From Thermoplasmatales archaeon SW_10_69_26 (GTDB lineage Archaea > Thermoplasmatota > SW-10-69-26): DNA of 40,954 nt. The DNA lies in assembly GCA_003009755.1 (NCBI GenBank), contig PXUB01000009.1, positions 1 to 40,954 on the forward strand, given 5' to 3'. Position numbers and translations under genes: made by a program. This document shows positions 1 to 40,954 of the stretch, piece by piece. The notes under the pieces are model-generated. The model saw only the letters and a program-made list of their open reading frames with translations. It searched no databases and was not told the origin of the DNA. The number at the start of each line of letters is the position of its first letter. Within the stretch, counting starts at the first letter, position 1.

Positions 1-147
1 GCTGCCGTGACAACGCCGCCCGGCGGCGAGTCACAGGCCCTTCGTGGCCTTGGCGATCCTTCGTGTCCTTCGCGGCCCCTGCTTAACCAGACAGCCGGAT
101 CTGGCCTCTCCGCAAGATTAAGGGACGGGGGGCAATTGGCGGGCACG

Positions 148-28048: not shown

Positions 28049-29785
28049 CTAGCCTTCGGGGACCGGTGAGGGGAGGGAACTGCCCATCGAGCGGACGCTG
28101 ATGCTCGCCTCTGGGGCACCCCCTTCCGTGAAACACCCGTCAACGAAGGCCGCATCGGACGTCCGCGAATGGAACGTCCACGTTCGCTCTTGGTCCTCGA
28201 CCTGCTCCGACCAAACAGGCACGGAGAATGTCTCGTTCGTTCCGGATCCCACCGCTGGAAGCCACACCGTCGAACCATCGACCGTATACCCGACCTCAAT
28301 CGGGGGATGGGGGGGACCGACAGCGACCTCGACCTCGAGGTAGTCGGTTCCCGGTCCGATGGTCCCCGTCCGTTCGAGTTCGCTCGGATTCATCGCCGGA
28401 CAGTCCGCTCCTGAGTCCTCGATCGGACTTCCCCCCACTGCTACCTCGGTGTCGCTGGCATTCGGTCCGACGATTTGGGTCAAGCTCGCCAGGATTCGGC
28501 CCTCTGAGGCCCAGGCGAAGATGCCGCGAGAAGGCCCAAACGCGATCCCGTACGCGTGGTTAAGGTTCGGATCGGGGTCGGCACTCGGCCCTGGCTCTCC
28601 CCTCGGTGTGGTCGACCCTTCGTCGACGAGATGCTGGTGGACAACGGTTTCCGATCCCGGATCGACGACCACGTGCGCGACGCGTTCGGCAAGGGGGGAG
28701 AATACATCGTCCCTGTCTCCGAGGTATAGACGTTCTTGGAGCAACAGATGGAGGTTCCCGGCGGGATCGGGCTCTGCCCAGAATACCTCTGTCGCCTCCC
28801 AATCCTCGTTGACGTGGAGATCATCGCTGAACGTTAGCCGGGTCCAACTTCGCCCGCCATCGTCACCGACGAACACGGAGACCTCGTTCCCGTCCTCAGG
28901 ACTCGTCGCGAAGAGCACGGAGGACCCTGACCCGGCGACGAGATGCCAGGGGTGAGACCCCTCCCTCGTGAAGTTGGAGACCTCCGACGTCGGCTCCGCC
29001 TGGCCAGCGACGCGATGGAATCGGAACCGATCTCCATCCCGGCATCCCAAAAGGACGCCCTCGTCGATGGAGACAGGTCGAGACGCGAGCTCGCAGCCCT
29101 CCACGCTGCCCGAAGACGCCACGGCACCATCGTCCCCCACGACGGTCCAGTTCACCGAGAAGTAGTCGGACCAGGCGATGATCGGCTGATCGTCAGGGGT
29201 GAACCCGAGCCAGGGCCGATCCGCTGTCTTGTTCGATGAAACGACGGTGCTGTGCACCCAATCCGCCCCAAGGTCGTCCGTTGCCGCATAGCCGACGTCG
29301 TATCCGGTCGAGGCGTCCGTTGGGAGCATCCCCGCGATGTGAAGACGCCCGTCCCTGTCGAACGCGATCGAAGGGTCACCGAGGAACTGCCGGCCGTCGA
29401 GCTGCGGCATCGGAACTTCCGTCCAGTCGCCCCCGCCGTCCTCCGAGACGAACATGCTGAGACTAGCGCCCTCGTAGTCTCCAGGCGGTGCGGGTTCCTC
29501 CCGGCTGTTGGCGAGGAGAACGGTGATTCGGGGATCGGCTGGATGGATAGCAACGTTCGGTTCGTACAAGGAGCGTTCGCTCTGCTCGATCACGGAGGCG
29601 CAGACCGAATCCTCGCTCTCCGTGTCTCCCTGAGGGCACTCCGAAACGTAGGTTTCCGCAAGGTAGCTGTTAGCGAGGTCCTGGGAGTCTCGATCCATCC
29701 CGGCGGGACTCCCGACGTTCCCGACGCATCCGACGGCGAGGGATGCGGTGAGCAGAACGACGACCAAGACGAGGGCCTCATCCAC
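28049..29785 (-). CDS. BNR/Asp-box (sialidase-like) beta-propeller lipoprotein with extra C-terminal domain
   Basis: Lipobox AVGC; Asp-boxes SEDGGGDW, TDDLGADW, GDDGGRSW; start uncertain. Confidence 0.8.
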   Translation of the reverse strand: MDEALVLVVVLLTASLAVGCVGNVGSPAGMDRDSQDLANSYLAETYVSECPQGDTESEDSVCASVIEQSERSLYEPNVAIHPADPRITVLLANSREEPAPPGDYEGASLSMFVSEDGGGDWTEVPMPQLDGRQFLGDPSIAFDRDGRLHIAGMLPTDASTGYDVGYAATDDLGADWVHSTVVSSNKTADRPWLGFTPDDQPIIAWSDYFSVNWTVVGDDGAVASSGSVEGCELASRPVSIDEGVLLGCRDGDRFRFHRVAGQAEPTSEVSNFTREGSHPWHLVAGSGSSVLFATSPEDGNEVSVFVGDDGGRSWTRLTFSDDLHVNEDWEATEVFWAEPDPAGNLHLLLQERLYLGDRDDVFSPLAERVAHVVVDPGSETVVHQHLVDEGSTTPRGEPGPSADPDPNLNHAYGIAFGPSRGIFAWASEGRILASLTQIVGPNASDTEVAVGGSPIEDSGADCPAMNPSELERTGTIGPGTDYLEVEVAVGPPHPPIEVGYTVDGSTVWLPAVGSGTNETFSVPVWSEQVEDQERTWTFHSRTSDAAFVDGCFTEGGAPEASISVRSMGSSLPSPVPEG

Positions 29786-30290
29786 TGATCGTTGAACGTT
29801 ATGGCCGCACATATCACCTGGGGGAAGACAGAGAAGACGGAGAGGCCCTGTCAAGTACGGGGCTAGGGCCGTGGACCATCTTTAGGTGGTCCATGGTGCA
29901 CTCCGTACACTCGCCGTCACAGACGGGAAGGGAACCGCCCGCTTCCCATCACCATTCCTGCTTAATCGGGCTGGACGTTCTCGGGTGTCTCCACAGCGCC
30001 GAGACCCACCGCAGGGACCGGATCGGACAGCTGCGTTTGGATGTTTACATGGCTGAGGACGATGTTTCAGTAATCGGCCCAGTCGGCTCACTTGTCCCCC
30101 GGTTCCGGCGGACGGGGCGTCGAGGGCGAGGAGGACCCTAACGACCGAATATCCTGAGGAAAGCCAATTTACTCGCCTTTACAGGCGAGGCCATGCTCGG
30201 ACCGGATGGGCTCGCTGAGGCACCGTCTTCAACCATCGGAATATTCCTTCATCAGCCGAAAATTTTTGTTTTCCGATCGCGTTTCACCGA

Positions 30291-31154
30291 GTGATGACCA
30301 GCCTTCGCGCGTGGGGGCTAATCCTCCTTTCGGTGGCAGCAGGAGTGCTTGCTACCGGATGTGTTGGGGAACAGAATTCGGACGCGAGCCGTGAAGGCCC
30401 ACCCGACCTGGACCAAACAGGCGCGAACCAATCCACGGTAACGAACCGATCCTTCACCCCTTGGCCTCCGGTTGAGAACGCAGAACTTCGCCCCGGAGGG
30501 CAGATGGATCCGTGTACAGTGGGTTTCCTATTCACTGACCAGTCGAACACGACCGCTTTCGTGAGCACTGCAGCCCATTGTGGTTCGGGAGACCACCTTC
30601 GAACCGGCGATGAGGTCGGCTTTCCCGAGGCGGAAATCACAGGACGAGTCGCTTACAGTAGTATAGAAACGATGGAAGCGGTGGACGAATCGTCGGAGGA
30701 TGCGCGATATTTCAATGACTTCGCCCTTGTTCGTATCCCTTATACGGCGTCGAACGAGGTACACCCCTCCGTCTATGAGTGGGGTGGCCCAGAGAACGTT
30801 TCAACCTCGGCCGACCGCGGAGAGCAGGTCTATACGTATGGCCAGAGCTCAACCCGGCAAGGAGCCCTGGATGCACGGCGAGGTGCAATCGTGGAACGAG
30901 AAGAGTGGCATTGGACGGTATACTTTGGCCCACCTTCCTATCCAGGCGACTCAGGGAGCCCCGTCCTGACGGAGAACGGGAAAGCCCTCGGCATCGTCAC
31001 CCACCTCGAGACATTCCCTCGCCCGGAGGCGAACACCGTTCTGAATCTGAGTCGCGCCTTAGATTACATGGAAAGCAAGACGGATGTGGACGCTGAGATC
31101 GCGACATCCTCCTTCGCTGATCCGTCACCGATCGAGGGTCCCGCAGCTCCCTGA
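30291..31154 (+). CDS. Trypsin-like (S1) serine protease lipoprotein
   Basis: Lipobox LATGC; catalytic triad TAAHC, NDFAL, GDSGS. Confidence 0.9.
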   Translation: MMTSLRAWGLILLSVAAGVLATGCVGEQNSDASREGPPDLDQTGANQSTVTNRSFTPWPPVENAELRPGGQMDPCTVGFLFTDQSNTTAFVSTAAHCGSGDHLRTGDEVGFPEAEITGRVAYSSIETMEAVDESSEDARYFNDFALVRIPYTASNEVHPSVYEWGGPENVSTSADRGEQVYTYGQSSTRQGALDARRGAIVEREEWHWTVYFGPPSYPGDSGSPVLTENGKALGIVTHLETFPRPEANTVLNLSRALDYMESKTDVDAEIATSSFADPSPIEGPAAP

Positions 31155-31173
31155 TGACATCCACAATTCCCTC

Positions 31174-31890
31174 TCAGATGAGCTTGCAGCCGCCTACGCG
31201 ACCAGTCGACCTCTGAGGCACCTCCAGAGCCCCGTCCGGTAGAGAAGAGACCGGGAAACGTAGTGACACCCACAAGGCCAGCCACGACGCGAACGTGACG
31301 GTGCCGACGATGTAGCCCGACCCTCGAAGACGAGGGACCACTCGCCGGCGGGGACCCGCATACCGGGAGTTTGCATCTGGACCTGCTGGCTCCCGCTGGT
31401 GCTGCCCCCAGTTCGGGCTACCGAGAAGGCGATGCTCCCGGTCCTCCCTCCGAAGGAGACCTCCTCGAAGACGTCGCCGTCGGGGTCGACGATCGCCATG
31501 CGGACCTCGCTGTTCGTCGAGCATAGGCCCACCTGGCCTTGGTCGATCGGCGTCCAGTGCTGGAAGCCCATCCGCTCCTCGCTGACGCGCGTGTTCTCGG
31601 GCACGGTGAACCCGATCTCGTCGCCTCCGTTCGCTGTAGTCGTGGGTTTCCTCCACGTTCACGGTGCCGCGATCGTTGGCGGGCTCGGACTGCTCGACCC
31701 CGACGGTCTCCACGTCTGTCCCGGTCCCGTCGCTGTCGGTTCCGATGCAGCCGGTCGCCGCGAGGCCGAGACAGACCACGGCCAGCACAATCGCAACGAA
31801 CCCCCAGCCATCGATCGAGGATCCTTTGGAGCGTCCGCGAACGTTTCCCCGACACGGGCGAGCGGGGATGGGCCTGAGTGGTTGCCCCAT
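31174..31890 (-). pseudogene. Lipoprotein gene with two opposing frameshifts
   Basis: Lipobox AATGC. The plausible product switches frame near 31634 (DYS to NGGDEIGFTVP) and back near 31320 (WSLVFEG to SGYIVGTVTF). Confidence 0.6.
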
Positions 31891-31922
31891 CCTTCAAGAC
31901 GACCCCTCGTCTACAACGGGTC

Positions 31923-32699
31923 GTGAGCACCCGGCTGGTCCCCCTGTTCGACGAGCGCGCCATGCTGGTGGAGACCAGCCCCGATCGCGTGCTGGTCGCC
32001 GGTGACCTGCACCTGGGCATGGAGCGCGAGCTTCGCAAGGACGGGGTGCACGGGATCGAGGAGACCGAGGGCCTGATCGCCCACCTGGGTGAGCTGGCCG
32101 CCGAGGAGCGCGTCGACCGCGTCCTGTTGCTCGGCGACGTCAAGCACACGCTGGGCGCCTGGGAGCCGGAGAAACGCGCCCTGAGCGGGCTGGCCGAGCT
32201 GCCGGTGCCCGTCGAGGTCGTGCCCGGCAACCACGACGGCGAGATCGACGAGATCGCTCCGTTCCTGAAGATCCACGACGCGCGCGGGTTGACGATCGGT
32301 GAGGTCGGGTTCCTGCACGGGCACACCTGGCCCAACGAGGAGATCACCGACGGCGGCCGCCTGGTGCTGTCCCACAACCACCCCCACGTGGCGTTGCGCG
32401 ACGGGCTGGGCCAGGTCTCCACCGAACCCTGCTGGGTGCGAGCCCCGATCCCCGACAGCGAGGCGAACCGCGAGCGCTACCCGGACGCTGACCTGCCCGG
32501 CGAGGCCGTGCTCGTCCCGGCGTTCAACCCGCTGTTGGGCGGGGTGGCGTTGAACCGACCCGAGGACGAGGCCTTGGGCCCGTTGTTGACGAACGACGTG
32601 ATCGATCTCGGTGCCGGCCGCGTGTACACCTTGGACGGGGTCGAGCTGGGCACGATCGCCGACCTGGAGGAGCGTCTCGATGACGACGACGTTCGATGA
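31923..32699 (+). CDS. Calcineurin-like metallophosphoesterase (Lhr-associated MPE type)
   Basis: GDLHLG, LGDVKH, PGNHD, HGH, HNHP, PAFN; overlaps the lhr start. Confidence 0.92.
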   Translation: MSTRLVPLFDERAMLVETSPDRVLVAGDLHLGMERELRKDGVHGIEETEGLIAHLGELAAEERVDRVLLLGDVKHTLGAWEPEKRALSGLAELPVPVEVVPGNHDGEIDEIAPFLKIHDARGLTIGEVGFLHGHTWPNEEITDGGRLVLSHNHPHVALRDGLGQVSTEPCWVRAPIPDSEANRERYPDADLPGEAVLVPAFNPLLGGVALNRPEDEALGPLLTNDVIDLGAGRVYTLDGVELGTIADLEERLDDDDVR

Positions 32700-35397
32700 G
32701 CTGCATCCCCGCCTCCAGGACCTGCTGGAGCGCGAGGGCTTCGAGGATCCGACCGAGGCCCAGGCCAAGGCCTTCGGCCCGATCCTCGACGGCCGACACA
32801 CCCTGCTGTTGGCCCCGACCGGCATGGGCAAGACCGAGGCCGCCGTCCTGCCGATCCTCGACGAGCTCGTCGAGCTGCCCGACGAGGAGCGCGAGGGCTT
32901 CGTGGCGATCTACGTCACGCCCTTGCGCGCCCTCAACCGCGACATCCTGACCCGGCTCGAGGACTGGTGCGAGTTCCTCGACGTCACGATCGGCGTCCGC
33001 CACGGCGACACCACCCAAGCCGAGCGCCGCCGCCAGTCGAAGAACCCGCCCGAGTTCCTGATCACGACGCCGGAGACCCTGCAGGCGATCTTCACCGGCT
33101 CGCGGCTGCGCGAGCACCTCGACGGGACGAAGTTCGTCGTCGTGGACGAGATCCACGAACTCGTCGGCAACGAGCGCGGCGCCCAGCTGGCCTGCGCGAT
33201 GGAGCGCATCACCCGCTACAGCGACGGGTTCCAGCGCGTGGGCTTGTCGGCGACCGTCGGCAACCCGGAGGAGACCGGCGAGTTCCTCGCCGGGGGCAAC
33301 CGGGACGCCGAGATCGTGCACGTGCCGGTCGGCAAGGACCTCGAGGTCACCGTCGAGGTGCCCGAGGTGACCGAGGAGGACCAGGTGCTCTCGGACAAGC
33401 TGTACTGCGGGGTGCGTGAAGCCTCGCTGGTGCGGCGGATCGTGGAGCTCGTCGAGGAGAACACGAGCACGCTCGTGTTCGTCAACACGCGCCGCATGGC
33501 CGAGGTGCTGGCCGCTCGCTTGGGGTTCTGGGACGTCGACGACATCCGCGTCCACCACGGATCCCTGCACAAGGAGGAGCGCGTGACCGTCGAGGAGGCG
33601 TTCAAGGCCGGCGAGATCTCCGGCCTGATCTGCACCTCGTCGATGGAGCTGGGCATCGACATTGGCTCGGCCGACTTCGTCGAGGGTCTCGTCATCGCGG
33701 AGGGCGCCCTGGCCGAGGACGTCGAGACAGCGCCGATCCCCGAGAACCCGCTCGACGTGCTCGCCAACCAGCTGGAGGCGATGAGCCTGGAAGGCGACGT
33801 CCCCCTCGACGAGGCCATGGGCACCCTGCGGCGGGCTCGTCCGTTCTGGTCGTTGTCCGACGAGACCGCCGTGGCCGTCATCGAGCAGATGGAGTCCACG
33901 CGCCTCGTCGAGCGCGATCGAGGCAACCTCACCCGCTTGGGTCGGGCGCGGTTGCACTTCGTCGAGAACCTCTCGATGATCCCGGATCAGACGACGTTCC
34001 TCGTCCGGGACGTCTCCTCGCGGCGCCCGATCGGCACCCTCGACGAGGCGTTCGTGATGAACTACGTCGAGCCGGGCGCCCTCGTCGTGCTGAAGGGCGA
34101 ACCCTGGCGCGTCGTCGAGGTCGAGGAACCCGACGAGGACGACGACGAGGACGAGGAGCCCGACATCCTCGTCGCGCCCGTCAAGGACCCGACCGGCGCC
34201 GTGCCGAGCTGGGTCGGCCAGGAGATCCCGGTCCCGTACGAGATCGCCCAGGGCGTCGGGCGGTTGCGCGGGGAGATCCACGAGCGCCTGCAAGCCGGCG
34301 AGGCCGCCGAGGAGGTTGCACGCGACGTGGCCGAGGAGCACCACACCGACGCGCACACGGCCTCGTTCCTCGTCGAGGGGCTGGCCGAGCAGGAGGAAGC
34401 TCTCATGCCGACCGACGAGATCGCGGTCCTCGAGACCGGCGAGGACGGCGTCGTGCTCAACGCCTGCCTGGGCCACAAAGCCAACGAGGCGCTGGGCACC
34501 GTGCTCAGCGGCCTGATCGCGGCCCGCATCGGGGAAAGCGTCGGCGTGGACGTCGACCCCTACCGCGTCATGCTCGAGCTGCCCCGCGGCACGCGACCCG
34601 GCATCGTTCAGACCGTGCTCGACGAGATCACCGGCTCGCCGCTGGACGGGCTGGTCGAGACGCTGATCACGAACCAACCCTTGCTGCGGTTCAAGCTCGT
34701 GCACGTCGCCCGCAAGTTCGGCGTGCTCGACAAGACGGCCTCCTCGATGAACATGAACGTGAAGCGGTTGCTCGACCGCTTCGAGGACACGCCCCTGCAC
34801 GAGGAGGCGGTGCGCGAGATCCTGCACGAGCGCATCGACGTGCCCCGCGCCGAAGCGTTCCTCCAGCAGCTCGAGGAGGGCACGGTCGCGCTCGAGAAAC
34901 AGCGGATGTCCCCGGTCGGCCAGCTCGGGTTCGAGGAGGCGGTGGACCTGGTGTCGCCCGGCCGCGCCACGGCCGCGATCCTGGAGGCCATGAGCGACCG
35001 CCTGGCGGACGAACCGGTCGTGCTGCACTGCATGCACTGCGGGGACTGGACCCGGCAGACGCGCGTCAAGCGCGTCCGCGAGCCGATCGATTGCCCCAAG
35101 TGTGGAGCCCAGGTCGTCACGATGGTGCGCCCGTGGATGGAGGAGCAGCTCAACGTTCTCTCCAAGGATGGCGAGCTGTCCCCCGACGAGCGGAAGACGC
35201 GCGAGAAGCTGGAGACGAAAGCCAGCCTGCTGTCCGCCCACGGCAAGGACGCGCTCGTCGCCCTCGTCTCGCGCGGCGTGGGCCCGACCACGGCCGGCCG
35301 CATCCTCGCCAAGCAGGTCGGCGACCGCGAGGGCCTGCTGCGGGAGCTGATGCAGGCCGAGATCGACTACGCCAGGACGCGGGAGTTCTGGGACTGA
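32680..35397 (+). CDS. lhr: Lhr-family SF2 helicase with C-terminal Cys4 zinc motif; motif VI region absent
   Basis: APTGMGKT, TPLRALNRD, TTPETL, DEIH, LSAT, FVNTR, HHGSL, TSSMELGIDIG; NPLDVLANQ, SMIPD, PSWVG; CMHC..CPKC. Confidence 0.93.
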   Translation: MTTTFDELHPRLQDLLEREGFEDPTEAQAKAFGPILDGRHTLLLAPTGMGKTEAAVLPILDELVELPDEEREGFVAIYVTPLRALNRDILTRLEDWCEFLDVTIGVRHGDTTQAERRRQSKNPPEFLITTPETLQAIFTGSRLREHLDGTKFVVVDEIHELVGNERGAQLACAMERITRYSDGFQRVGLSATVGNPEETGEFLAGGNRDAEIVHVPVGKDLEVTVEVPEVTEEDQVLSDKLYCGVREASLVRRIVELVEENTSTLVFVNTRRMAEVLAARLGFWDVDDIRVHHGSLHKEERVTVEEAFKAGEISGLICTSSMELGIDIGSADFVEGLVIAEGALAEDVETAPIPENPLDVLANQLEAMSLEGDVPLDEAMGTLRRARPFWSLSDETAVAVIEQMESTRLVERDRGNLTRLGRARLHFVENLSMIPDQTTFLVRDVSSRRPIGTLDEAFVMNYVEPGALVVLKGEPWRVVEVEEPDEDDDEDEEPDILVAPVKDPTGAVPSWVGQEIPVPYEIAQGVGRLRGEIHERLQAGEAAEEVARDVAEEHHTDAHTASFLVEGLAEQEEALMPTDEIAVLETGEDGVVLNACLGHKANEALGTVLSGLIAARIGESVGVDVDPYRVMLELPRGTRPGIVQTVLDEITGSPLDGLVETLITNQPLLRFKLVHVARKFGVLDKTASSMNMNVKRLLDRFEDTPLHEEAVREILHERIDVPRAEAFLQQLEEGTVALEKQRMSPVGQLGFEEAVDLVSPGRATAAILEAMSDRLADEPVVLHCMHCGDWTRQTRVKRVREPIDCPKCGAQVVTMVRPWMEEQLNVLSKDGELSPDERKTREKLETKASLLSAHGKDALVALVSRGVGPTTAGRILAKQVGDREGLLRELMQAEIDYARTREFWD

Positions 35398-35661
35398 ACA
35401 TTTCCTTTTTCAACGGAACCCCGGTGCCTGGCGACCCCCGGGAAACGAAGATCTTCGGAAAGGATGCGAGGGTTCGCCTGGCCCCAGGTACCCTCGCAAT
35501 CCGGCCGAAGCGGAGCTTCGGCCTCTCCGGAGACCGAACGGTGTCGCCGGTCTCCGGATGAAAACGGGGGCCGCCAGCGTTCCCAGACGCCGACGGAGGC
35601 GGCCCGGCGTCTCCGGAGAGGACGGATCTCCGATCCGTCCGCAACGCAGGCCCCATCGACG
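35381..35661 (+). repeat. 281-bp direct repeat copy A (last 17 bp of lhr plus structured trailer)
   Basis: Aligns without gaps to 39154-39434; 10 mismatches by hand count. Confidence 0.95.
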
Positions 35662-35859
35662 CTGGTCTGTGAGGCTGCTGTATCTTTGCGCAGGGCTATC
35701 GACGCCGGACCTGTTCCGACGCTGTCGCGGTGGGCCCGGAACGCAGCCCCGGATGGTCCCGAGCTGTCACCTCGCTGGATCTTCGCGCAAGGCTATCGCC
35801 GACGGCCCTGCTTCGACGTGGTTGCGACCGGCCCGCGGTCGATCGGAGGAGAAGAGACC

Positions 35860-35881
35860 CGGACGGGCTCTCGCCCGTCCG
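35860..35881 (-). terminator. Hairpin just downstream of the 35894-36364 gene
   Basis: GGACGGGC-TCTC-GCCCGTCC perfect stem followed on the minus strand by a pyrimidine run. Confidence 0.45.
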
Positions 35882-35893
35882 TTGGTGACCGGA

Positions 35894-36364
35894 TCACAGC
35901 GGGCCGTCGACGACCTCGATCGTGTCGTAGCCGAGGAAGATCGCGACCCGATCGGGGTTGTCGTCCTCGACCCGGGCGTCCTCGTTGCAAGGGTTGTGAT
36001 CGTACCCGACCGGGCCCGCCTGGGCGCCGATGCTGATGCAGTGCTCGAGCGGGATCTCCTCCTTGGGGGTCCAGTCCTCGTCGATGCTGATCTGCGGGTC
36101 GCACTGCCAGACAGCGACGGAGGCCGGGCCGACCTGTTGCTCGGGCACGATCACGTACCAGCAGTGGTGTTGGGTGGTGGCCAGGCCCTCGTCGGGGTTG
36201 GCCTCGACGACGACGCCCTGGCAGTTGTCGTACTTGGCCGTGGCCTCGTCCTCCTCGACGCCGACCTCCCAGCAGTGCTCGGCCGAGGACGTGGGCGCCA
36301 GTGCGATCATGGTCACGAGCGCGACGCAGAACGCGATGCCGTAGGTTGCAAGCTTGCGGTTCAT
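35894..36364 (-). CDS. Small secreted Cys-containing acidic protein
   Basis: Signal peptide ending SSA; six Cys in the mature part, HCW/HC repeats. Confidence 0.75.
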   Translation of the reverse strand: MNRKLATYGIAFCVALVTMIALAPTSSAEHCWEVGVEEDEATAKYDNCQGVVVEANPDEGLATTQHHCWYVIVPEQQVGPASVAVWQCDPQISIDEDWTPKEEIPLEHCISIGAQAGPVGYDHNPCNEDARVEDDNPDRVAIFLGYDTIEVVDGPL

Positions 36365-36464
36365 GGACTCTCCCTTCGAACGGGTGGAGCCGCTGACGCT
36401 GGCCGGTGGGGAAAAGGCTTGCTGGTCCGCAACGCGCGTGTTCGGGCCTGGGAGGGCCCTTCCT

Positions 36465-37176
36465 TCACGGTCGCCGGCTGACGGCTTGCCAGCTCGCGAT
36501 CGCTCCCGCTACCGCGAGGGCGCCGAGCGGGCTCGGGGCAGGCGCGGTTCGTTGTTCGTCGCCGCCGTCCGTCGATCCGTTCGGGTCTCCACTGGCTCGG
36601 GAGGGCTCGGCCTGCGTCGAAGGTTCGGTCTCCGCCGAGGGCTCGTCCTCCTCGCCGGGGTTGGGGGTCGCCTTCACGGGTTCGAGGCTGACCTGGGCCT
36701 GGGAGCCTTGCAGCGTGAAGGCGCCCGTCGTGTTCGCGAGCACGGTGACCTCGGCCCCGCCGGCAACCGCCCCCGCGGGTGATGGCCAGCTCGATCGTGG
36801 CCTCGTCGCGCTGGCTCGGCTCGGCCGGGTCGCGTCGGTGGGGGTGGTTGGTCGACGGGTGCTCGACCTCCGAGGGCGTCACGTTGGTCCTCGTCCCGTC
36901 GGGAGCCCCGACCGCCAACCGGGTCTCTGTGGTCTGCAGGGTGACGACGTAGCTCGGGTAGGTGTAGACGAGCTCGAGGTCGAGCTCGATCGGGGATCCG
37001 TTGGCCACCGTCAGGGATCCCTCTGGGGCCTCCAGAGAGGTCTCCGATCCCGGGAGGTGGAAGGCTTGCCCGCCGAGGCCGAGGCCGACCAAGCTCGCGA
37101 CGACCGCGAGCGCCATCCATCGCCCGACCGGCCGCGGGCTCGACCGCTCGGTCTGCGTCGATCTCCGTCGAGCCAT
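36465..37176 (-). pseudogene. Frameshifted surface protein with C-terminal sorting-signal-like tail
   Basis: Signal helix, frame change near 36778 (ELAI to PAGAVAGGAEV), acidic P/T/S linker, then PAPSPLGALAVAGAIA..RRP, resembling an archaeosortase-type tail. Confidence 0.65.
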
Positions 37177-37255
37177 CGATCCGCGAGGGGGCCTAGGACG
37201 GCAAGAAGACAGCGGCCACGGCGTTAACCTTCACTGGGCGCGGGTGTGGCGGGCG

Positions 37256-37372
37256 GGCCCGACGAGGAGCAGCCGCATCCTCGCCAAGAGCCACGGCCAC
37301 GAGGACGAGCTGTTGCGCGAGCTCTGCAGGTCCGAGATCGATTACGCCCGAACGCGCGATTTTTGGGATCGA
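37256..37372 (+). pseudogene. Diverged relic of the lhr 3' end
   Basis: GPTRSSRILAKSHGHEDELLRELCRSEIDYARTRDFWD versus native GPTTAGRILAKQVGDREGLLRELMQAEIDYARTREFWD (25/38 identical, no gaps); TGA replaced by CGA. Confidence 0.9.
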
Positions 37373-37414
37373 GCGCAGGGGTTGACGGCAACTCAGGATG
37401 AGGAGCCCGCTGAC

Positions 37415-38845
37415 TCAGGACCCCGTCTCGGCAAACGCGTAGGCGGTCGCCCACTCGTTCGTCGTCCAGGTGAGCATCGTGCGATCGTCGACGACCTCGA
37501 CATCGTAGTAGTCGTCGGCGGGTCCGCGGTTGGGGGACGGGTTGCTCTCGGTCGAGGTCTCGGGCGGCTTCAGCTCAGTCTCGGCCACAATGGTCAGGTT
37601 GGCCGGGTGCAGGACGACGTGGGCGACCGGGCGCTGGCCGCGATCGTACGGGGCGAAGGTGGCAGGCGAGTGCGTGAACAGGACGTGCACGTAGCCGTCG
37701 GCGCCGGCGCCCATCGCGTAGACGAAGGGGTTGACGAGCGGTTCGGGCCAGTCCTCGTTGACGGTCGCCTCCTCGATGACGTCGATCGAGACGTTCCACG
37801 TCTCCCCACCATCCGGGCTGTGGGCCATCTGGCCGCCATAGCAGGCGGAGACGATCACGTCGTCGATCGGGTTGGCCAGGAACGGGGAGTTGACCGGGCA
37901 GCCGCCCTCGACGGCGGCGAGCCGGTCGAGGCCGCCAGTCACGGGATCGAGCTCGTAGACGTCGAACTGACCGTCGTGCTCGCAGGCGACGAGGAGCCCG
38001 GCCGAGGTCGCTTCCACCGGGGAGATGCTGTCGCAGGACTCCAGCAGGCTCGCGTTGCCCGGCGTCCGCCACGTCTCACCGGCGTCCGTGCTCGTCGCGA
38101 TCGACGAGGTGCTGTTGGGCTGGTTGCGCCAGCTCGTGAACAGGATCCCGTTGACCGGCCCGGTAAGCCACTGGCGGTCGTGGTCGGTGTCCGCCGCCAG
38201 CAGGGTCTCGTGCTCCCACGAGTCGCCGAGGTCGGTGGATCGCATCGCGAAGACCCGGGTCTCGGACTGCTCCACGAAGCCAGGGTTGTCCGACGGTTCG
38301 CCGGGTGGCTCCTGGAAGGAGATCAGGCCCGTGAAGTGCAGCCGGCCCGCCTCGTCGAACACGAGCGAGGGGTCGGCGCCGCTGCGGTCCCGAGCCGGTA
38401 TCGTCTCGGGGACGTCGCCGAGCGGAATCGGGTTGCGCTCCCAGCTCTCGCCGGCGTCGGTCGTGACGTAGACGGCGAGTCCGACGTTCTCGGCGCCGCT
38501 GTTCTCCTCCTGGCCGCTGGGCTGGGCCTTGCCTTCCATGACACCGACGGCGATCGTGGCCGGATCGGTGGGGTGCACGGCCTGGAAGGGTTCACCCAGC
38601 GTGCGCAAGGGATCCTCGATCAGGCCCGCGCAAACGTCGCCCGTCGGTTGGAAGGTCGCGCCCTCGGGGCAGGGGTAGGAGACGTTCACCTCGGCCGGCA
38701 GCTCGGTGACGGGCGAGGCCTGGTTCTCCTCGCTGGCGTCCCCCGCCGGCCTAGAGCCTCCTGCATCGGAACCGACCTCGAGGCATCCCCCGATGAAGAC
38801 GACAGAGAGAAGAACGGCTGCCGTACACAGCCTCCGGATGTCCAT
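37415..38845 (-). CDS. BNR/Asp-box (sialidase-like) beta-propeller lipoprotein, paralog of 28049-29785
   Basis: Lipobox IGGC; Asp-boxes TTDAGESW, STDLGDSW, STDAGETW, SPDGGETW. Confidence 0.85.
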   Translation of the reverse strand: MDIRRLCTAAVLLSVVFIGGCLEVGSDAGGSRPAGDASEENQASPVTELPAEVNVSYPCPEGATFQPTGDVCAGLIEDPLRTLGEPFQAVHPTDPATIAVGVMEGKAQPSGQEENSGAENVGLAVYVTTDAGESWERNPIPLGDVPETIPARDRSGADPSLVFDEAGRLHFTGLISFQEPPGEPSDNPGFVEQSETRVFAMRSTDLGDSWEHETLLAADTDHDRQWLTGPVNGILFTSWRNQPNSTSSIATSTDAGETWRTPGNASLLESCDSISPVEATSAGLLVACEHDGQFDVYELDPVTGGLDRLAAVEGGCPVNSPFLANPIDDVIVSACYGGQMAHSPDGGETWNVSIDVIEEATVNEDWPEPLVNPFVYAMGAGADGYVHVLFTHSPATFAPYDRGQRPVAHVVLHPANLTIVAETELKPPETSTESNPSPNRGPADDYYDVEVVDDRTMLTWTTNEWATAYAFAETGS

Positions 38846-38996
38846 CGCTGAAATGGTGAATCTCACCGAAGAAAAACATTGGGTTTCCATCGTTGGCGGG
38901 TGCGGGGAATCGAGCAGCGACAGAAAGGCCCCTACCGCCGCCAAACGGGGCTGTAAGGACACCCGAATTCTTTCCTTGTCGACCTTTGCCCCTTCG

Positions 38997-39170
38997 ATGG
39001 CTCTCCCGCGTTCCGATCTCTGCTTCATCGCGTTCCTTGCTTTGGCGGCCATAGTTATCGGAATAGGAAGCGGGGGAGTGATCGCTTCGAGCCACAGCGA
39101 TTCGCCAGCGGTCGTGCCAGTTGACGTCCGGTCCCATCCGCCCCTAGAGGAGAGGGAGTTCTGGGACTGA
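38997..39170 (+). pseudogene. 5' fragment of a secreted-protein gene fused in frame to the lhr terminal codons (REFWD*)
   Basis: MALPRSDLCFIAFLALAAIVIGIG...PPLEE|REFWD*; the junction coincides with the start of repeat copy B. Confidence 0.6.
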
Positions 39171-39434
39171 ACATCTCCTTTTTCAACGGGGCCCTGGTGC
39201 GTGGCGACCCCCGGGAAACGAAGATCTTCGGAAAGGATGCGAGGGTTCGCCTGGCCCCAGGAACCCTCGCAATCCGCCCGAAGCGGAGCTTCGGCCTCTC
39301 CGGAGACCGAACGGTTTCGCCGGTCTCCGGAAGAAAACGGGGGCCGCCAGCGTTCGCAGACGCCGACGGAGGCGGCCCGGCGTCTCCGGAGAGGACGGAT
39401 CTCCGATCCGTCCGCAACGCAGGCCCCATCGACG
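39154..39434 (+). repeat. 281-bp direct repeat copy B
   Basis: Offset 3773 bp from copy A. Confidence 0.95.
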
Positions 39435-39553
39435 ATGACCTTCGACGCTGCTCTACTTCCCGCACGACGACCGTCGCTTGACGGGCTCCTGCGCGAAGGT
39501 GCGCGATGCGGCGATGGTGGGGCCGGGTTCGCGGTAACGGTCGGTGATCCGAT

Positions 39554-40495
39554 CTACCCTTCTTCGCAGGTCAACGTCGGGTCCATCCCGTTCGCGGGAA
39601 GCCCGCCAGGGTGGGGTGGGGGTACCGCGAAGGAAGCCAGACCCAAGGGTCCCTGGCTCTGTGCGGATAGGGATAGCGCAAAGCCGTCGTCCATCTGCCT
39701 CGTCAGGCAGAGGATCCCCGGCGCTTTCGCATCCGACCAGGACCGGCAGACGTCCTCTGTCGATTCGACGCAGTAGGTGAGGTCGGCGGACGAGACGACG
39801 ATCTGGGTCGTCGAGACCCAGTTCGCATAGCCCTGCAGCTCCCCCCGGGCATCCTCGATGATCGTGGGCCCGAACCGGCTTGTCGCAGCGATCTCGGCGT
39901 CGAGATCCGCCAGGTCCCACGCGAGAGGGGATCGATCGAGGCTCCTCGTCTCCACCTCGGCCGCTCCGGTCCAGTTCAGCCAGACGGTCAGGTCCCGGTC
40001 CTCGGCAAGGCCCAATCCGAAGACCAAGGCCGGATCCGCGGGACCGCGGTCGAGCGTGAAATGGCGCTCCCCCTCCTCTGTTCCATTGAGGAGCTCCGGA
40101 CTCACCGGCGAGCTCGAGAACGACTGCCTGGCCAGGCCCCCTCTGAGGGTCGGTGAGTTCACGGAGTCCATCGCCACCGCGAGCGGAACGTCGGTCCGCG
40201 TTCCGTTCGGGTAGACGAACCCCACGACCTCCGGATCAGGGCCATCGTTGGTGAGAGTGTACGCGAGCGAGAACTTAGCGTCCACGGCCTCCTCGACGCT
40301 GACCACCATCGTCGGGCGATCGCCGTCGAGGTGGACCGCGAGAGAACGGTTCTCCTCCAGGGAGGAGGAAGCGTTTTCACGGACTTCCGAAGAGGAGGGG
40401 TCGACGTGGCCTCCGCTGGCGACGATGATCCCTCCCACAATCAAGGTCATCGCCACCACCAAGGGGAGACCCAGCCGACGATCAACGACAGCCAT
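39554..40495 (-). CDS. Hypothetical membrane-anchored/secreted protein
   Basis: N-terminal TM helix; acidic beta-rich body; start overlaps the stop of the upstream gene (TGATG). Confidence 0.7.
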   Translation of the reverse strand: MAVVDRRLGLPLVVAMTLIVGGIIVASGGHVDPSSSEVRENASSSLEENRSLAVHLDGDRPTMVVSVEEAVDAKFSLAYTLTNDGPDPEVVGFVYPNGTRTDVPLAVAMDSVNSPTLRGGLARQSFSSSPVSPELLNGTEEGERHFTLDRGPADPALVFGLGLAEDRDLTVWLNWTGAAEVETRSLDRSPLAWDLADLDAEIAATSRFGPTIIEDARGELQGYANWVSTTQIVVSSADLTYCVESTEDVCRSWSDAKAPGILCLTRQMDDGFALSLSAQSQGPLGLASFAVPPPHPGGLPANGMDPTLTCEEG

Positions 40496-40953
40496 CAGCA
40501 GACGCTCGTTAGCGCACTTCCGTACGATTCCAACTTAAGGTTGTCGCTGTTGGCGAGGAGGTTATCGGAATGACCCCAGGTCATGAAGCAGGCAGCGGGA
40601 CCCAGGCACTCCACGTAAGCGTTGCCAGGCCCTGCGGTCGACGCGGCGAGGAACGTCCCCGCAGAATTAGCGTCGGTGTAAGTCATGGAGCTGTAGTCCC
40701 CATCCCAGTCCACCAATGTTCCAGAACCGACCTTGGCTGCCTTTGCCACTCCCCCTTCGACCACGATCGGAATATGCGTACCACCAACCACCAGCTCCCA
40801 ATTGGTAAGTCCCGGTAGAGCGCCCGCACAACCTGCAGAAATCCCCTCAATCACTTTCAAAACCTCATCAACGGGGTCCGACGGAGATTTTTCCAGATCC
40901 GATTCAAATTCGCACTCCTTTTTGACGAGTGAGAACTCTTGCCGGAACTCGTC
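40495..40953 (-). CDS. Hypothetical protein, partial (5' end beyond window)
   Basis: Frame is open to the window edge (DEFRQEFSLVKKECEF...LTSVC*); visibly more AT-rich codons. Confidence 0.65.
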   Translation of the reverse strand, partial: DEFRQEFSLVKKECEFESDLEKSPSDPVDEVLKVIEGISAGCAGALPGLTNWELVVGGTHIPIVVEGGVAKAAKVGSGTLVDWDGDYSSMTYTDANSAGTFLAASTAGPGNAYVECLGPAACFMTWGHSDNLLANSDNLKLESYGSALTSVC

Positions 40954-40954
40954 T

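What the first reader, a model, noticed from the sequence alone, without database searches (positions are those of the whole stretch)
35281..40954. Cassette-accreting island of surface-protein genes anchored on the lhr 3' end, with no integrase in view
Seen: the lhr 3' end occurs three times in the same orientation - native (35281-35397), an old relic (37256-37372, 25/38 aa identical, many synonymous changes) and a recent copy (39154-39434). Between the copies lie blocks of secreted or lipoprotein genes (35894-37176; 37415-39153; 39554 onward), almost all on the minus strand. Established: additive genomic islands leave repeated 3' ends of their target gene, usually a tRNA, and are typically integrase-driven. 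Inference: here a protein-coding gene end is the repeated landing site. Incoming DNA restores an intact lhr end and pushes the previous end and its cargo downstream, building an integron-like array that diversifies the cell surface. The unequal copy lengths (117 bp versus 17 bp of coding sequence) fit homology-anchored illegitimate recombination better than one fixed att site.
Basis: partly seen in the sequence, partly recalled or inferred. Interest (0 to 1): 0.85.

Follow-up and report, generated by a model that had tools for sequence, protein, structure and literature searches.

The report
Displaced helicase gene ends mark insertions
Behind a DNA-helicase gene of an uncultured salt-rock archaeon lie two leftover copies of that gene's end, which show that blocks of surface-protein genes were slotted in there at least twice with no integrase in sight; this kind of recombination scar is known from bacteria and is seen here in an unusual host and at an unusual gene.

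Summary
The lhr 3' end occurs three times in one orientation: native, a decayed relic B (25 of 38 aa) and a 17-nt piece C.

About 260 nt of the 276-nt "recent copy" is not lhr. It is R, a lineage-specific, multi-hairpin intergenic repeat that starts in the lhr stop codon and has other copies behind unrelated genes. Only 17 nt are lhr, but that 17-mer occurs exactly twice in 2.8 Mb, so C does derive from the lhr locus.

The window is a whole contig of a halite archaeal MAG. It joins contig C48, so the island fills the slot between two convergent core genes, lhr and a beta-CASP RNase gene. The slot is about 7.7 kb here and 0.7-3.2 kb in four family relatives, which carry none of this cargo and no relics.

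No recombinase gene lies on either contig.

Best reading (about 0.5): lhr-anchored, one-sided homologous plus illegitimate recombination, at least twice. The last event put a pre-assembled 3.77-kb block, already carrying relic B, onto an lhr-R-p313 background. This is a known kind of event (Rhs and T6SS displacement arrays). "Integron-like" overstates two events. Interest is moderate.

The parts
32611..35397 (+). lhr: intact Lhr-type helicase gene of 928 aa, the conserved anchor. It overlaps the upstream metallophosphoesterase gene (31878-32699).
   Evidence: Pfam hits DEAD, Helicase_C, WH_Lhr and DEAD_assoc. Orthologues at 61-74% identity in 5 same-family genomes, all ending ...YARTR-x-FW(D/E) followed by a stop.
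35381..35397 (+). Copy A: the last 17 nt of lhr (codons R-E-F-W-D-stop), the part shared with copy C.
   Evidence: Exact 17-mer found only at 35381 and 39154 in the genome, also with up to 2 mismatches.
35396..35661 (.). R_A: core of a multi-hairpin dispersed repeat that starts in the lhr stop codon with a T-rich tract. Tail modules follow to about 35720, with another tail-like module at 35774-35817.
   Evidence: Other copies at C32:73669-73975, C29:46980-47281, C8:11862-12027, C29:31676-31826 and C2:44063-44212, plus short hairpin pieces. Fold z-scores -5.2 and -5.7. No Rfam family.
35894..36364 (-). p156: small Cys-rich protein with an N-terminal signal-like segment (block X1).
   Evidence: ORF. 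No Pfam, NCBIfam or PHROG family above noise. Its 90% cluster has 2 members.
36465..37176 (-). Frameshifted gene of block X1. The N-terminal part runs in the frame of the 271-aa ORF (start at 37176). The acidic C-terminal part, ending in a hydrophobic stretch plus basic tail, runs in the frame of the 92-aa ORF (stop at 36465). The shift is near 36766-36786.
   Evidence: Three-frame translation. The Logan contig of run X1 is identical over 35894-37267.
37211..37372 (+). Relic B: a decayed lhr 3' end without a stop codon. Nucleotide homology starts at 37255; weaker protein-level similarity starts at 37211.
   Evidence: tblastn E 8.5e-13. 25 of 38 aa and 71% nt identity to the native end, 23 of 38 to G001. 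4 of the 18 columns invariant in the 7 orthologues are changed.
37415..38845 (-). BNR/Asp-box lipoprotein gene (block X2), with a lipobox-like signal ...VFIGGC.
   Evidence: Pfam BNR 2.9e-8. Patchy in relatives, best 40% in another family. A 28-30% paralogue at 28565-29797.
38846..39153 (.). Low-GC (58%) upstream region of the BNR gene. Its right edge at 39153/39154 is the abrupt junction with relic C.
   Evidence: GC values. No similarity to the lhr sequence upstream of the 17 nt. The Logan contig of run X1 spans 37902-39231 with 0 differences.
39154..39170 (+). Relic C: 17 nt of the lhr end, displaced 3773 nt downstream.
39169..39434 (.). R_C: second copy of the R core, 96.4% identical to R_A. 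A diverged R-type tail follows to about 39493.
39554..40495 (-). p313: membrane-anchored ORFan, the gene behind the displaced end.
   Evidence: No match in 20 relatives. Its 90% cluster has 11 members, and the 9 others aligned are 92-96% identical.
40495..40954 (-). p152: 3' part of a secreted-protein gene that continues on contig C48, where its start and signal peptide lie.
   Evidence: 17-nt end overlap of C9 and C48, the only one among the 98 contig ends, and the frame stays open across the join.

Best explanation
The region is the lhr-proximal part of a strain-variable island, about 7.7 kb, of secreted and membrane-anchored protein genes. The island fills the slot between two convergent core genes: lhr and a beta-CASP RNase gene on the adjoining contig C48.

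The island grew by lhr-anchored additive recombination. Incoming DNA from a related cell paired with lhr on its left side and recombined there by homology. On its right side it joined illegitimately inside the resident lhr 3' end. The incoming lhr end therefore became the working one, and a stump of the old end, with everything behind it, was pushed downstream. This is the scheme known as homology-facilitated illegitimate recombination. No dedicated recombinase is involved.

Two such events are recorded.
- The older event left relic B, about 114-160 nt, now decayed.
- The younger event left relic C, 17 nt of lhr plus the R repeat. It most likely placed a ready-made 3.77-kb block (R tail, two small genes, relic B, BNR gene) onto a background arranged lhr-R-p313.

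R itself is a REP/BIME-like array of hairpin units that sits at the 3' ends of genes. It is a passenger that lengthened the duplicated stretch, not the landing site.

Shown: the repeats, their sharp borders, the slot, the lack of recombinase genes on both contigs, and the lack of cargo or relics in the relatives.
Inferred: the recombination mechanism, the direction (insertion rather than deletion) and the order of the events.
For: - The 17 nt of lhr coding sequence is carried with R only in copy C. The other large R copies begin at or after the stop codons of unrelated genes and do not share it.
- REFWD-stop is ancestral lhr sequence. The relatives, which lack R at this place, end the same way.
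- The left border of C is abrupt: in-register identity is 10-25% against a null of about 29%.
- Relic B is real lhr homology (E 8.5e-13) and is the only other relic in the 49 contigs.
- The two stumps have different lengths, so the junctions lie at different lhr positions.
- lhr is intact.
- C9 joins C48. In G001, G002, G003 and G005 the beta-CASP gene lies 0.7, 3.2, 2.3 and 2.1 kb behind lhr, and none of the window's five cargo genes lies next to lhr there.
- There are no PF00589 or PF00239 hits on C9 or C48, and no viral signal.
- In an independent study, contigs of a strain 2-3% diverged cover lhr up to 35396 and p313 from 39387. One contig of run X4 joins 35462 to 39333.
- The p313 cluster has 11 members, against 2 each for p156 and the BNR protein.
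- A and C differ at 10 sites, and their longest identical run is 78 nt, so short reads can phase them.
- The same mechanism has been proposed for displaced 3' ends and gene arrays in bacteria (PMC5361080, passages read).
Against: - Only two relics exist. There is none at the far end of the island next to the ancestral flank, and none behind lhr in the 6 relatives examined.
- Order and divergence disagree with simple stepwise growth, because C is farther from lhr but younger-looking than B. An extra assumption is needed: a pre-assembled donor block, or gene conversion.
- The A-C block also has a sharp right border inside R. A one-sided event does not require this; a fixed att site or a single crossover with a circle would produce it naturally.
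- The same genome holds a classical element whose 97-nt repeats have the same geometry, 18 nt of the tRNA-Gly end plus downstream DNA.
- The bridging contig in X4 is weak. It is one contig at depth 3.5. Its 37-nt side differs between A and C at one base only. It does not reach lhr coding sequence.
- I did not analyse microhomology at the junctions beyond reading them.
- Natural DNA uptake or cell fusion is unknown for this lineage.
Confidence: 0.5

Rival explanations
1. Single-crossover (Campbell-type) entry and exit, or recombination and gene conversion between repeats. In this reading the 3.77-kb segment entered as a circle carrying the 276-nt lhr-end/R block and recombined with the resident block. 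Alternatively A and C are old and are kept alike by gene conversion, and strains without the segment lost it by A x C recombination. No illegitimate join is needed for the last step.
For: Both borders of the A-C block are sharp, and the R tails beyond the right border are only 63% alike. That is what a homology-limited crossover or conversion tract gives. Direct repeats of 276 nt at 96% identity, 3.8 kb apart, are good substrates for recombination. R is a dispersed family. One contig joins across the segment.
Against: It does not explain how a block with 17 nt of lhr next to the BNR upstream region arose in the first place; some illegitimate join is still needed once. It does not explain relic B. 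The segment has no replication or mobility gene.
Confidence: 0.2
2. Site-specific integration. A and C are attL and attR of a small integrative element that targets the lhr end or R, using an integrase that was lost or acts in trans. B is the att remnant of an older element.
For: The geometry matches the genome's own tRNA-Gly element. That element has 97-nt direct repeats at 95.9% identity, made of 18 nt of the gene end plus downstream DNA, flanking 4.46 kb with a PF00589 integrase. Three tyrosine-recombinase-like genes and one serine recombinase gene exist elsewhere in the genome. Both ends of the A-C block are sharp.
Against: There is no integrase, or fragment of one, in the segment or on C9 or C48. 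The cargo is only secreted-protein genes. B and C retain very different lengths of lhr, and B has no R. No viral or plasmid hallmark was found.
Confidence: 0.15
3. Assembly artefact. The contig threads two strain haplotypes through the R repeat, so the tandem arrangement does not exist in any one cell.
For: The genome is a metagenome-assembled genome of 49 contigs with 2.2% contamination. It is rich in small repeats. The Logan contigs of run X1 break inside both R copies, at 35458/35632 and 39231/39405. A different continuation exists at 40658.
Against: - The unique junctions are each spanned by Logan contigs of run X1 with 0 differences: lhr into R_A (33681-35458), relic B (35894-37267 and 37251-37907), and the BNR upstream region into the 17 nt and R_C (37902-39231).
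- The junction of X2 with the 17 nt of lhr cannot be produced by mis-threading.
- Word depth is even, about 10-12, over lhr, the segment and p313 in X1.
- A and C differ at 10 sites, with at most 78 identical bases in a row.
- A second assembly holds a BNR protein identical at 536 of 537 residues on a 9,702-nt contig. The exact p313 is also recorded on a contig of that length.
Confidence: 0.07
4. In-situ tandem duplication of the lhr 3' region followed by decay and gene gain, with no incoming DNA anchored on lhr.
For: Relic B is closest to the native lhr end: 71% nt and 25 of 38 aa, against 69% and 23 of 38 for the nearest other genus. The GC content of the blocks equals that of the genome.
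Against: The genes between the copies have no paralogue relation to lhr or to each other. The BNR protein's best relative (40%) is in another family, and p313 has none in 20 relatives. Duplication does not explain stumps of 17 and about 114-160 nt, each followed by unrelated DNA.
Confidence: 0.05

Closest known systems
Sequential displacement arrays attributed to homology-facilitated illegitimate recombination: Vibrio cholerae T6SS effector-immunity arrays (Kirchberger et al. 2017, PMC5361080, passages read) and Rhs 'C-terminal displacement' with orphaned 3' regions (Jackson et al. 2009, seen only as cited in that paper)
   Same: A conserved upstream stretch serves as the homologous anchor. 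The incoming DNA supplies a new 3' end. The old 3' end and the genes behind it are shifted downstream and persist as orphans in the same orientation. No integrase is involved. That paper itself draws the parallel with integrons.
   Different: Here the anchor is a housekeeping helicase whose end stays the same, not a toxin gene with a variable tip. The cargo is separate genes on the opposite strand with no effector-immunity logic. The host is an uncultured halophilic archaeon. Only two events are seen.
Integrase-driven islands at gene 3' ends (tRNA-targeting integrative elements). An example sits in this same genome at C2:33058-37668.
   Same: Direct repeats made of the last 17-18 nt of the target gene plus downstream DNA flank a block of about 4 kb. 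The target gene stays intact.
   Different: There is no integrase in or near the lhr block. The target is a protein-coding gene. The two relics keep very different lengths of it.
Flexible genomic islands of aquatic and halophilic prokaryotes, 'additive' versus 'replacement' (Lopez-Perez et al. 2014, PMC4033161, passages read)
   Same: The slot is fixed between conserved core genes. Its content differs between relatives and encodes exposed cell-surface proteins. Recombination in the conserved flank is invoked.
   Different: That paper ties additive islands to integrases or transposases and says replacement islands lack clear marks of illegitimate recombination at their borders. This island is additive without mobile-element genes and does carry such marks.
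Integrons
   Same: New units enter next to a fixed point and push the older ones away from it.
   Different: There is no IntI, attI or attC. The units carry their own upstream regions. Two events do not make an array. See the membership test.
REP/BIME-type extragenic palindromic repeats (for the R element; this comparison is recalled and comes from no call)
   Same: Mosaic arrays of hairpin units in intergenic DNA directly behind stop codons. There are many partial copies, and single units occur alone.
   Different: No Y1 (RAYT-type) transposase was found in the genome. The host is an archaeon. The copy number is low: 5 large copies.

Membership tests
Integron | IntI-type tyrosine recombinase gene next to the insertion point | tested here: not met
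   PF00589 hits lie only on C2, C19 and C1, none on C9 or C48. The ORFs next to lhr are a metallophosphoesterase and secreted proteins.
Integron | A folded attC-type recombination site at the end of every cassette | tested here: not met
   The hairpin repeat R is present at 2 of the 3 junctions. It is absent at relic B, where only 45 nt lie between the relic and the BNR stop. R copies also lie at unrelated loci.
Integron | Promoterless cassettes read from a common promoter at the insertion point | tested here: not met
   All cargo genes are on the strand opposite to lhr, and each block has its own upstream region, for example 38846-39153.
Integrase-driven integrative element at a gene 3' end | Direct repeats that include the 3' end of the target gene and flank the insert | tested here: met
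   35381-35656 and 39154-39429 are 96.4% identical.
Integrase-driven integrative element at a gene 3' end | Integrase gene, or its remnant, inside the insert | tested here: not met
   no such ORF lies in 35662-39153.
Integrase-driven integrative element at a gene 3' end | Circular excised form with a precise attP joint | not testable with these tools
   Only Logan contigs, not raw reads, could be laid.
HFIR-type additive insertion / 3'-end displacement array | Conserved anchor gene left intact, with displaced stumps of its 3' end downstream in the same orientation | tested here: met
HFIR-type additive insertion / 3'-end displacement array | Distal junction without homology, and at different positions in different events | tested here: met
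   The border at 39153/39154 is abrupt. The stumps are 17 nt and about 114-160 nt long.
HFIR-type additive insertion / 3'-end displacement array | Strains with and without the insert, or with other inserts, at the same anchor | tested here: inconclusive
   One weak bridging contig was found in another study. Cluster sizes are 11 against 2 and 2. The metagenome contigs that carry p313 could not be fetched.
HFIR-type additive insertion / 3'-end displacement array | The recombination itself: one-sided homology plus microhomology join | not testable with these tools
   This needs genetics in a cultured relative or many sequenced junctions.
Flexible genomic island between core genes | Same slot in relatives, with different gene content | tested here: met
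   The spacing from lhr to the beta-CASP gene is 0.7, 3.2, 2.3 and 2.1 kb in G001, G002, G003 and G005, against about 7.7 kb here. The cargo is not shared next to lhr.
REP/BIME-like repeat (element R) | Extragenic, palindromic units in mosaic arrays, with many copies | tested here: met
   Of the 82 predicted pairs, only 3 show compensatory change among the 4 copies, so covariation is weak.
REP/BIME-like repeat (element R) | Associated Y1 (RAYT) transposase | tested here: not met
   PF01797 gives 0 hits in the genome, which is 95% complete.
Lhr helicase | DEAD/Helicase_C core plus the Lhr winged-helix and DEAD-associated domains | tested here: met
   Pfam PF00270, PF00271, PF19306 and PF08494 all score above their cut-offs.

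The most novel reading that the evidence does not exclude
The lhr end, together with the hairpin repeat R that begins in its stop codon, is a recurrent, recombinase-independent capture site. Through it a natural population of halophilic archaea trades ready-made blocks of surface-protein genes: entry by one-sided or single-crossover recombination, exit by recombination between the displaced ends. It would work as an integron in function but run on general recombination, and R-type hairpin arrays would mark similar capture sites elsewhere in the genome.
Probability: 0.12. Interest if true: 0.7.

Novelty: new variant of a known kind. Interest (0 to 1): 0.38.

Why it matters
Islands of surface-protein genes that differ between strains are thought to drive the coexistence of microbes with their viruses. 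How such islands gain genes when no integrase or transposase is present is poorly documented, above all in archaea.

This locus keeps the scars of the process: two stumps of a housekeeping gene, each followed by a different block. It therefore gives a concrete, testable example of additive gene gain by general recombination in an uncultured halophilic archaeon.

It also gives a practical warning. A long 'gene-end copy' can be mostly a dispersed intergenic repeat. Here only the 17 nt of coding sequence tie the copy to its source.

Tried and rejected
- Rfam, at gathering thresholds on the whole window and at E up to 10 on 35300-39600, finds no family for R. Only two tRNAs and noise come up.
- Reads, absence of cover. 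Runs X2-X4, from another study, show little or no cover of 35588-39175.
- JGI metagenome contigs gave no relative with Lhr or with p313 as query. The contigs that hold the 10 other p313 cluster members could therefore not be inspected.
- Viral contigs with the BNR protein as query gave nothing. PHROGs gave one weak hit of unknown function.
- NCBIfam gave no family for any cargo protein, so I do not claim PGF-CTERM or any other sorting signal. The C-terminal anchor and the signal peptides were read by eye.
- No Y1 transposase is available to mobilise R.
- A sensitive search of the far end of the island (C48:39100-41302) and of 35398-40954 with 7 Lhr C-termini found only B.
- Codon-position counts cannot date B. 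The counts are 11/8/14, but real orthologue pairs over the same 38 codons are just as flat, for example 11/10/9.
- The C-termini before three R copies look alike (EFWD, EFNE, DFVE). I judged this to be chance in an acidic proteome. REFWD is ancestral in lhr orthologues that lack R.
- A hidden older lhr relic upstream of the 17 nt in C was rejected.
- One search had a term-syntax error and was repeated. Script one search gave no answer and was repeated.

Full report
WHAT THE SEQUENCE IS

The window is the whole of contig C9 of a metagenome-assembled genome. The genome has 2,816,557 bases in 49 contigs, is 95% complete and has 2.2% contamination. Public runs that hold the stretch are labelled halite metagenome. 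The nearest named records are an 'uncultured Thermoplasmatales archaeon' MAG (Lhr 73% identical) and a Poseidoniaceae MAG (37%). No genome of the same genus is held; five of the same family are.

The gene at 32611-35397 is an intact Lhr-type helicase with DEAD, Helicase_C, WH_Lhr and DEAD_assoc domains. It overlaps an upstream metallophosphoesterase gene. That pair is also adjacent in G001, G004 and G002.

Repeat finding gives two pairs:
- 35381-35680 against 39154-39453, 94% identical.
- 35280-35393 against 37255-37368, 72% identical.

Against the whole genome, the second pair scores blastn E 8e-15. The translated relic scores E 8.5e-13, and the next best Lhr C-terminal match anywhere in the 49 contigs has E 0.074. 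Relic B shares 25 of 38 residues with the native end.

The 17 nt that end lhr (R-E-F-W-D-stop) occur exactly twice in the genome, at 35381 and 39154, even with up to two mismatches allowed.

WHAT THE 'RECENT COPY' REALLY IS

Only those 17 nt are lhr. The remaining 259 nt or so belong to a dispersed repeat that I call R.
- R has 21-25 matches in this genome.
- Five copies are 150 nt or longer: the two in the window, C32:73669-73975, C29:46980-47281 and C8:11862-12027. These are 80-84% identical to copy A.
- There are also shortened mosaics (C29:31676-31826, C2:44063-44212) and about 20 single hairpin units of 30-70 nt.
- R folds into a row of hairpins, with z -5.2 on one strand and -5.7 on the other.
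- Among four full copies, 82 pairs are predicted but only 3 show compensatory change.
- R matches no Rfam family.
- Among the 20 relatives searched, it was found only as hairpin pieces, in the two genomes of one genus.
- No Y1 transposase gene was found.

R starts with a T-rich tract in or right after the stop codon of lhr. On C32 it follows a zinc-ribbon gene ending ...CGYTEFNE, and it likewise follows genes on C29 and C2. Oligo-T tracts are archaeal terminators, and the overall picture resembles bacterial REP/BIME arrays; both statements are recalled, not tested.

None of the other R copies carries the 17 nt of lhr. The relatives, which lack R at this place, end their Lhr the same way. Copy C therefore really derives from the lhr locus.

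BORDERS

The A-C block is 276 nt with 10 differences (96.4%), all between 35402 and 35583. The longest identical run is 78 nt.
- To the left of the 17 nt, in-register identity is 10-25%, below the background of about 29%.
- To the right of about 35661, both copies continue with R-type tail modules that are only 63% alike (44 of 70).
- Relic B has no R behind it. Only 45 nt separate it from the stop of the convergent BNR gene.

THE ISLAND AS A WHOLE

The right end of C9 overlaps the right end of contig C48 by 17 nt in the expected orientation. This is the only such overlap among all 98 contig ends. The open frame of the last gene runs on into C48, where its start and a signal peptide lie.

Synteny agrees with this join. 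In G001, G002, G003 and G005, lhr is followed convergently by a gene whose homologue in this genome is the beta-CASP RNase gene at C48:37873-39117, and then by a giant Ig-domain protein gene. The beta-CASP gene lies 0.7, 3.2, 2.3 and 2.1 kb behind lhr in these four genomes. G003 and G005 have one 230-aa gene in between, whose homologue sits at C48:40285-40641.

In this genome the same slot measures about 7.7 kb and holds seven minus-strand genes:
- p156.
- A frameshifted gene at 36465-37176, with the shift near 36766-36786.
- A BNR/Asp-box lipoprotein.
- p313.
- The gene split over the contig break.
- Two further genes on C48.

N-terminal signal or anchor segments were read by eye; no family model supports them. 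None of the window's five cargo genes (p156, the 271-aa ORF, BNR, p313, p152) lies next to lhr in the relatives. The BNR protein is patchy, with its best hit at 40% in another family. p313 has no match in 20 relatives. No relative has an lhr stump in the 0.3-15 kb examined downstream. The far end of this island has none either.

RECOMBINASES

The genome has three PF00589 hits (C2, C19, C1) and one PF00239 hit (C7). None is on C9 or C48.

The C2 hit belongs to a textbook element. A tRNA-Gly gene is followed by 97-nt direct repeats at 95.9% identity. These repeats start 18 nt before the tRNA end and flank 4.46 kb that include the integrase. It is a useful internal contrast, and it is also the main argument for the site-specific rival.

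POPULATION DATA

Logan contigs of run X1, probably the source sample and so not independent, span each unique junction with 0 differences. Word depth is even, at about 10-12. The contigs break only inside the two R copies.

In a second study (runs X2-X4), contigs 2-3% diverged cover lhr up to 35396 and p313 from 39387 onward. One 419-nt contig of X4 joins 35462 to 39333. That joint has three weaknesses:
- Depth is 3.5.
- The 37-nt side differs between A and C at a single base.
- The contig does not reach lhr coding sequence. It would also fit a shortened R_C.

Separately, the 90% cluster of p313 has 11 members, and the nine others aligned are 92-96% identical. The clusters of p156 and of the BNR protein have 2 members each. 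A second assembly carries a BNR protein identical at 536 of 537 residues on a 9,702-nt contig, and the exact p313 is recorded on a contig of the same length.

Together these points suggest, but do not prove, that lhr-R-p313 is the common arrangement and that the 3.77-kb block is a minority state. I could not fetch the contigs that would settle this.

DATING

Relic B is 71% identical in nucleotides to the native end and 69% to that of G001. The native end and G001 are 79% identical to each other. B has lost the stop codon and has changed 4 of the 18 residues invariant in seven functional orthologues. It is therefore old and decayed, and closest to this lineage. Codon-position counts are uninformative over so short a stretch.

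C is 96% identical to A, and its 17 lhr bases are untouched. There are two ways out:
- The last event brought in a block that already contained B. I favour this, given the population hints.
- A and C are old and are homogenised by gene conversion, and other strains lost the block by A x C recombination.

MECHANISM AND RIVALS

The unequal stumps, the abrupt distal junctions, the intact anchor gene and the lack of any recombinase or mobile-element gene fit one scheme best. Incoming DNA from a related cell pairs with lhr and recombines there by homology. Its far side joins illegitimately within the resident lhr end. The incoming lhr end becomes the working one, and the stump of the old end is pushed downstream. 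This is homology-facilitated illegitimate recombination.

That scheme has been proposed for V. cholerae T6SS effector-immunity arrays and, as cited there, for orphaned Rhs 3' regions. Its authors already noted the likeness to integrons (PMC5361080, passages read). Work on flexible islands ties additive islands to integrases or transposases and notes that replacement islands lack clear marks of illegitimate recombination (PMC4033161, passages read). This locus is additive, has no such genes and does carry the marks.

My confidence in each reading:
- lhr-anchored recombination, two events: about 0.5.
- Single-crossover or conversion variant: 0.2.
- Integrase lost or acting in trans: 0.15.
- Assembly artefact: 0.07.
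- In-situ duplication: 0.05.

VERDICT

The footprint is real, neat and informative. It is partly mislabelled: most of the 'copy' is a dispersed repeat. It records two events, not an integron-like system. The kind of event is known from bacteria; the host, the housekeeping anchor gene and the preserved scars make this a new variant. Interest 0.38.

Noticed in passing
G000:C2:33058-37668 (locus L066 2059-6669): A classical small integrative element. A tRNA-Gly(CCC) gene is followed by 97-nt direct repeats (33114-33210 and 37572-37668, 95.9% identical) that begin 18 nt before the tRNA end. They flank 4.46 kb that include a PF00589 integrase at 33474-33929.
   Followed up: partly
window 1-96, and 46 other places in the genome (for example G000:C20:13719-13893): A second, more abundant repeat family of about 170 nt, with 47 matches at 80-100% identity, nearly all 88-96%. 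One truncated copy forms the very start of this contig, so these repeats probably break the assembly.
   Followed up: partly
window 36465-37176 (-): This cargo gene is frameshifted near 36766-36786. The N-terminal signal part and the acidic C-terminal part, which ends in a hydrophobic stretch plus basic tail, lie in different frames. The Logan contig of run X1 shows the same sequence.
   Followed up: partly
window 40938-40954 and G000:C48:41286-41302: Contigs C9 and C48 overlap by 17 nt end to end, the only such pair among the 98 contig ends. The last ORF of the window continues into C48, and synteny in relatives agrees.
   Followed up: yes
window 40658-40954: In run X1 a 3,028-nt Logan contig (depth 10.7) matches 39405-40658 and has 1,774 more letters that do not lie on the window. 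The window's last 254-300 nt are covered only by a contig of depth 3.4. The contig end may therefore be a minority strain variant inside the last gene.
   Followed up: no
window 28565-31154: The other side of the mpe-lhr pair also carries secreted-protein genes: a 28-30% paralogue of the BNR protein (28565-29797, minus strand) and a trypsin-like lipoprotein gene (30291-31154). GC is lower there, 57-60% over 29800-31300. The conserved pair thus sits between two variable stretches.
   Followed up: no
window 39236-39332 (R_C), run X4: The only contig of the other study that crosses R lacks about 97 nt of hairpin modules, with 3 other letters in their place. It resembles the short mosaic copy at C29:31676-31826. 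R seems to gain and lose units between strains.
   Followed up: no
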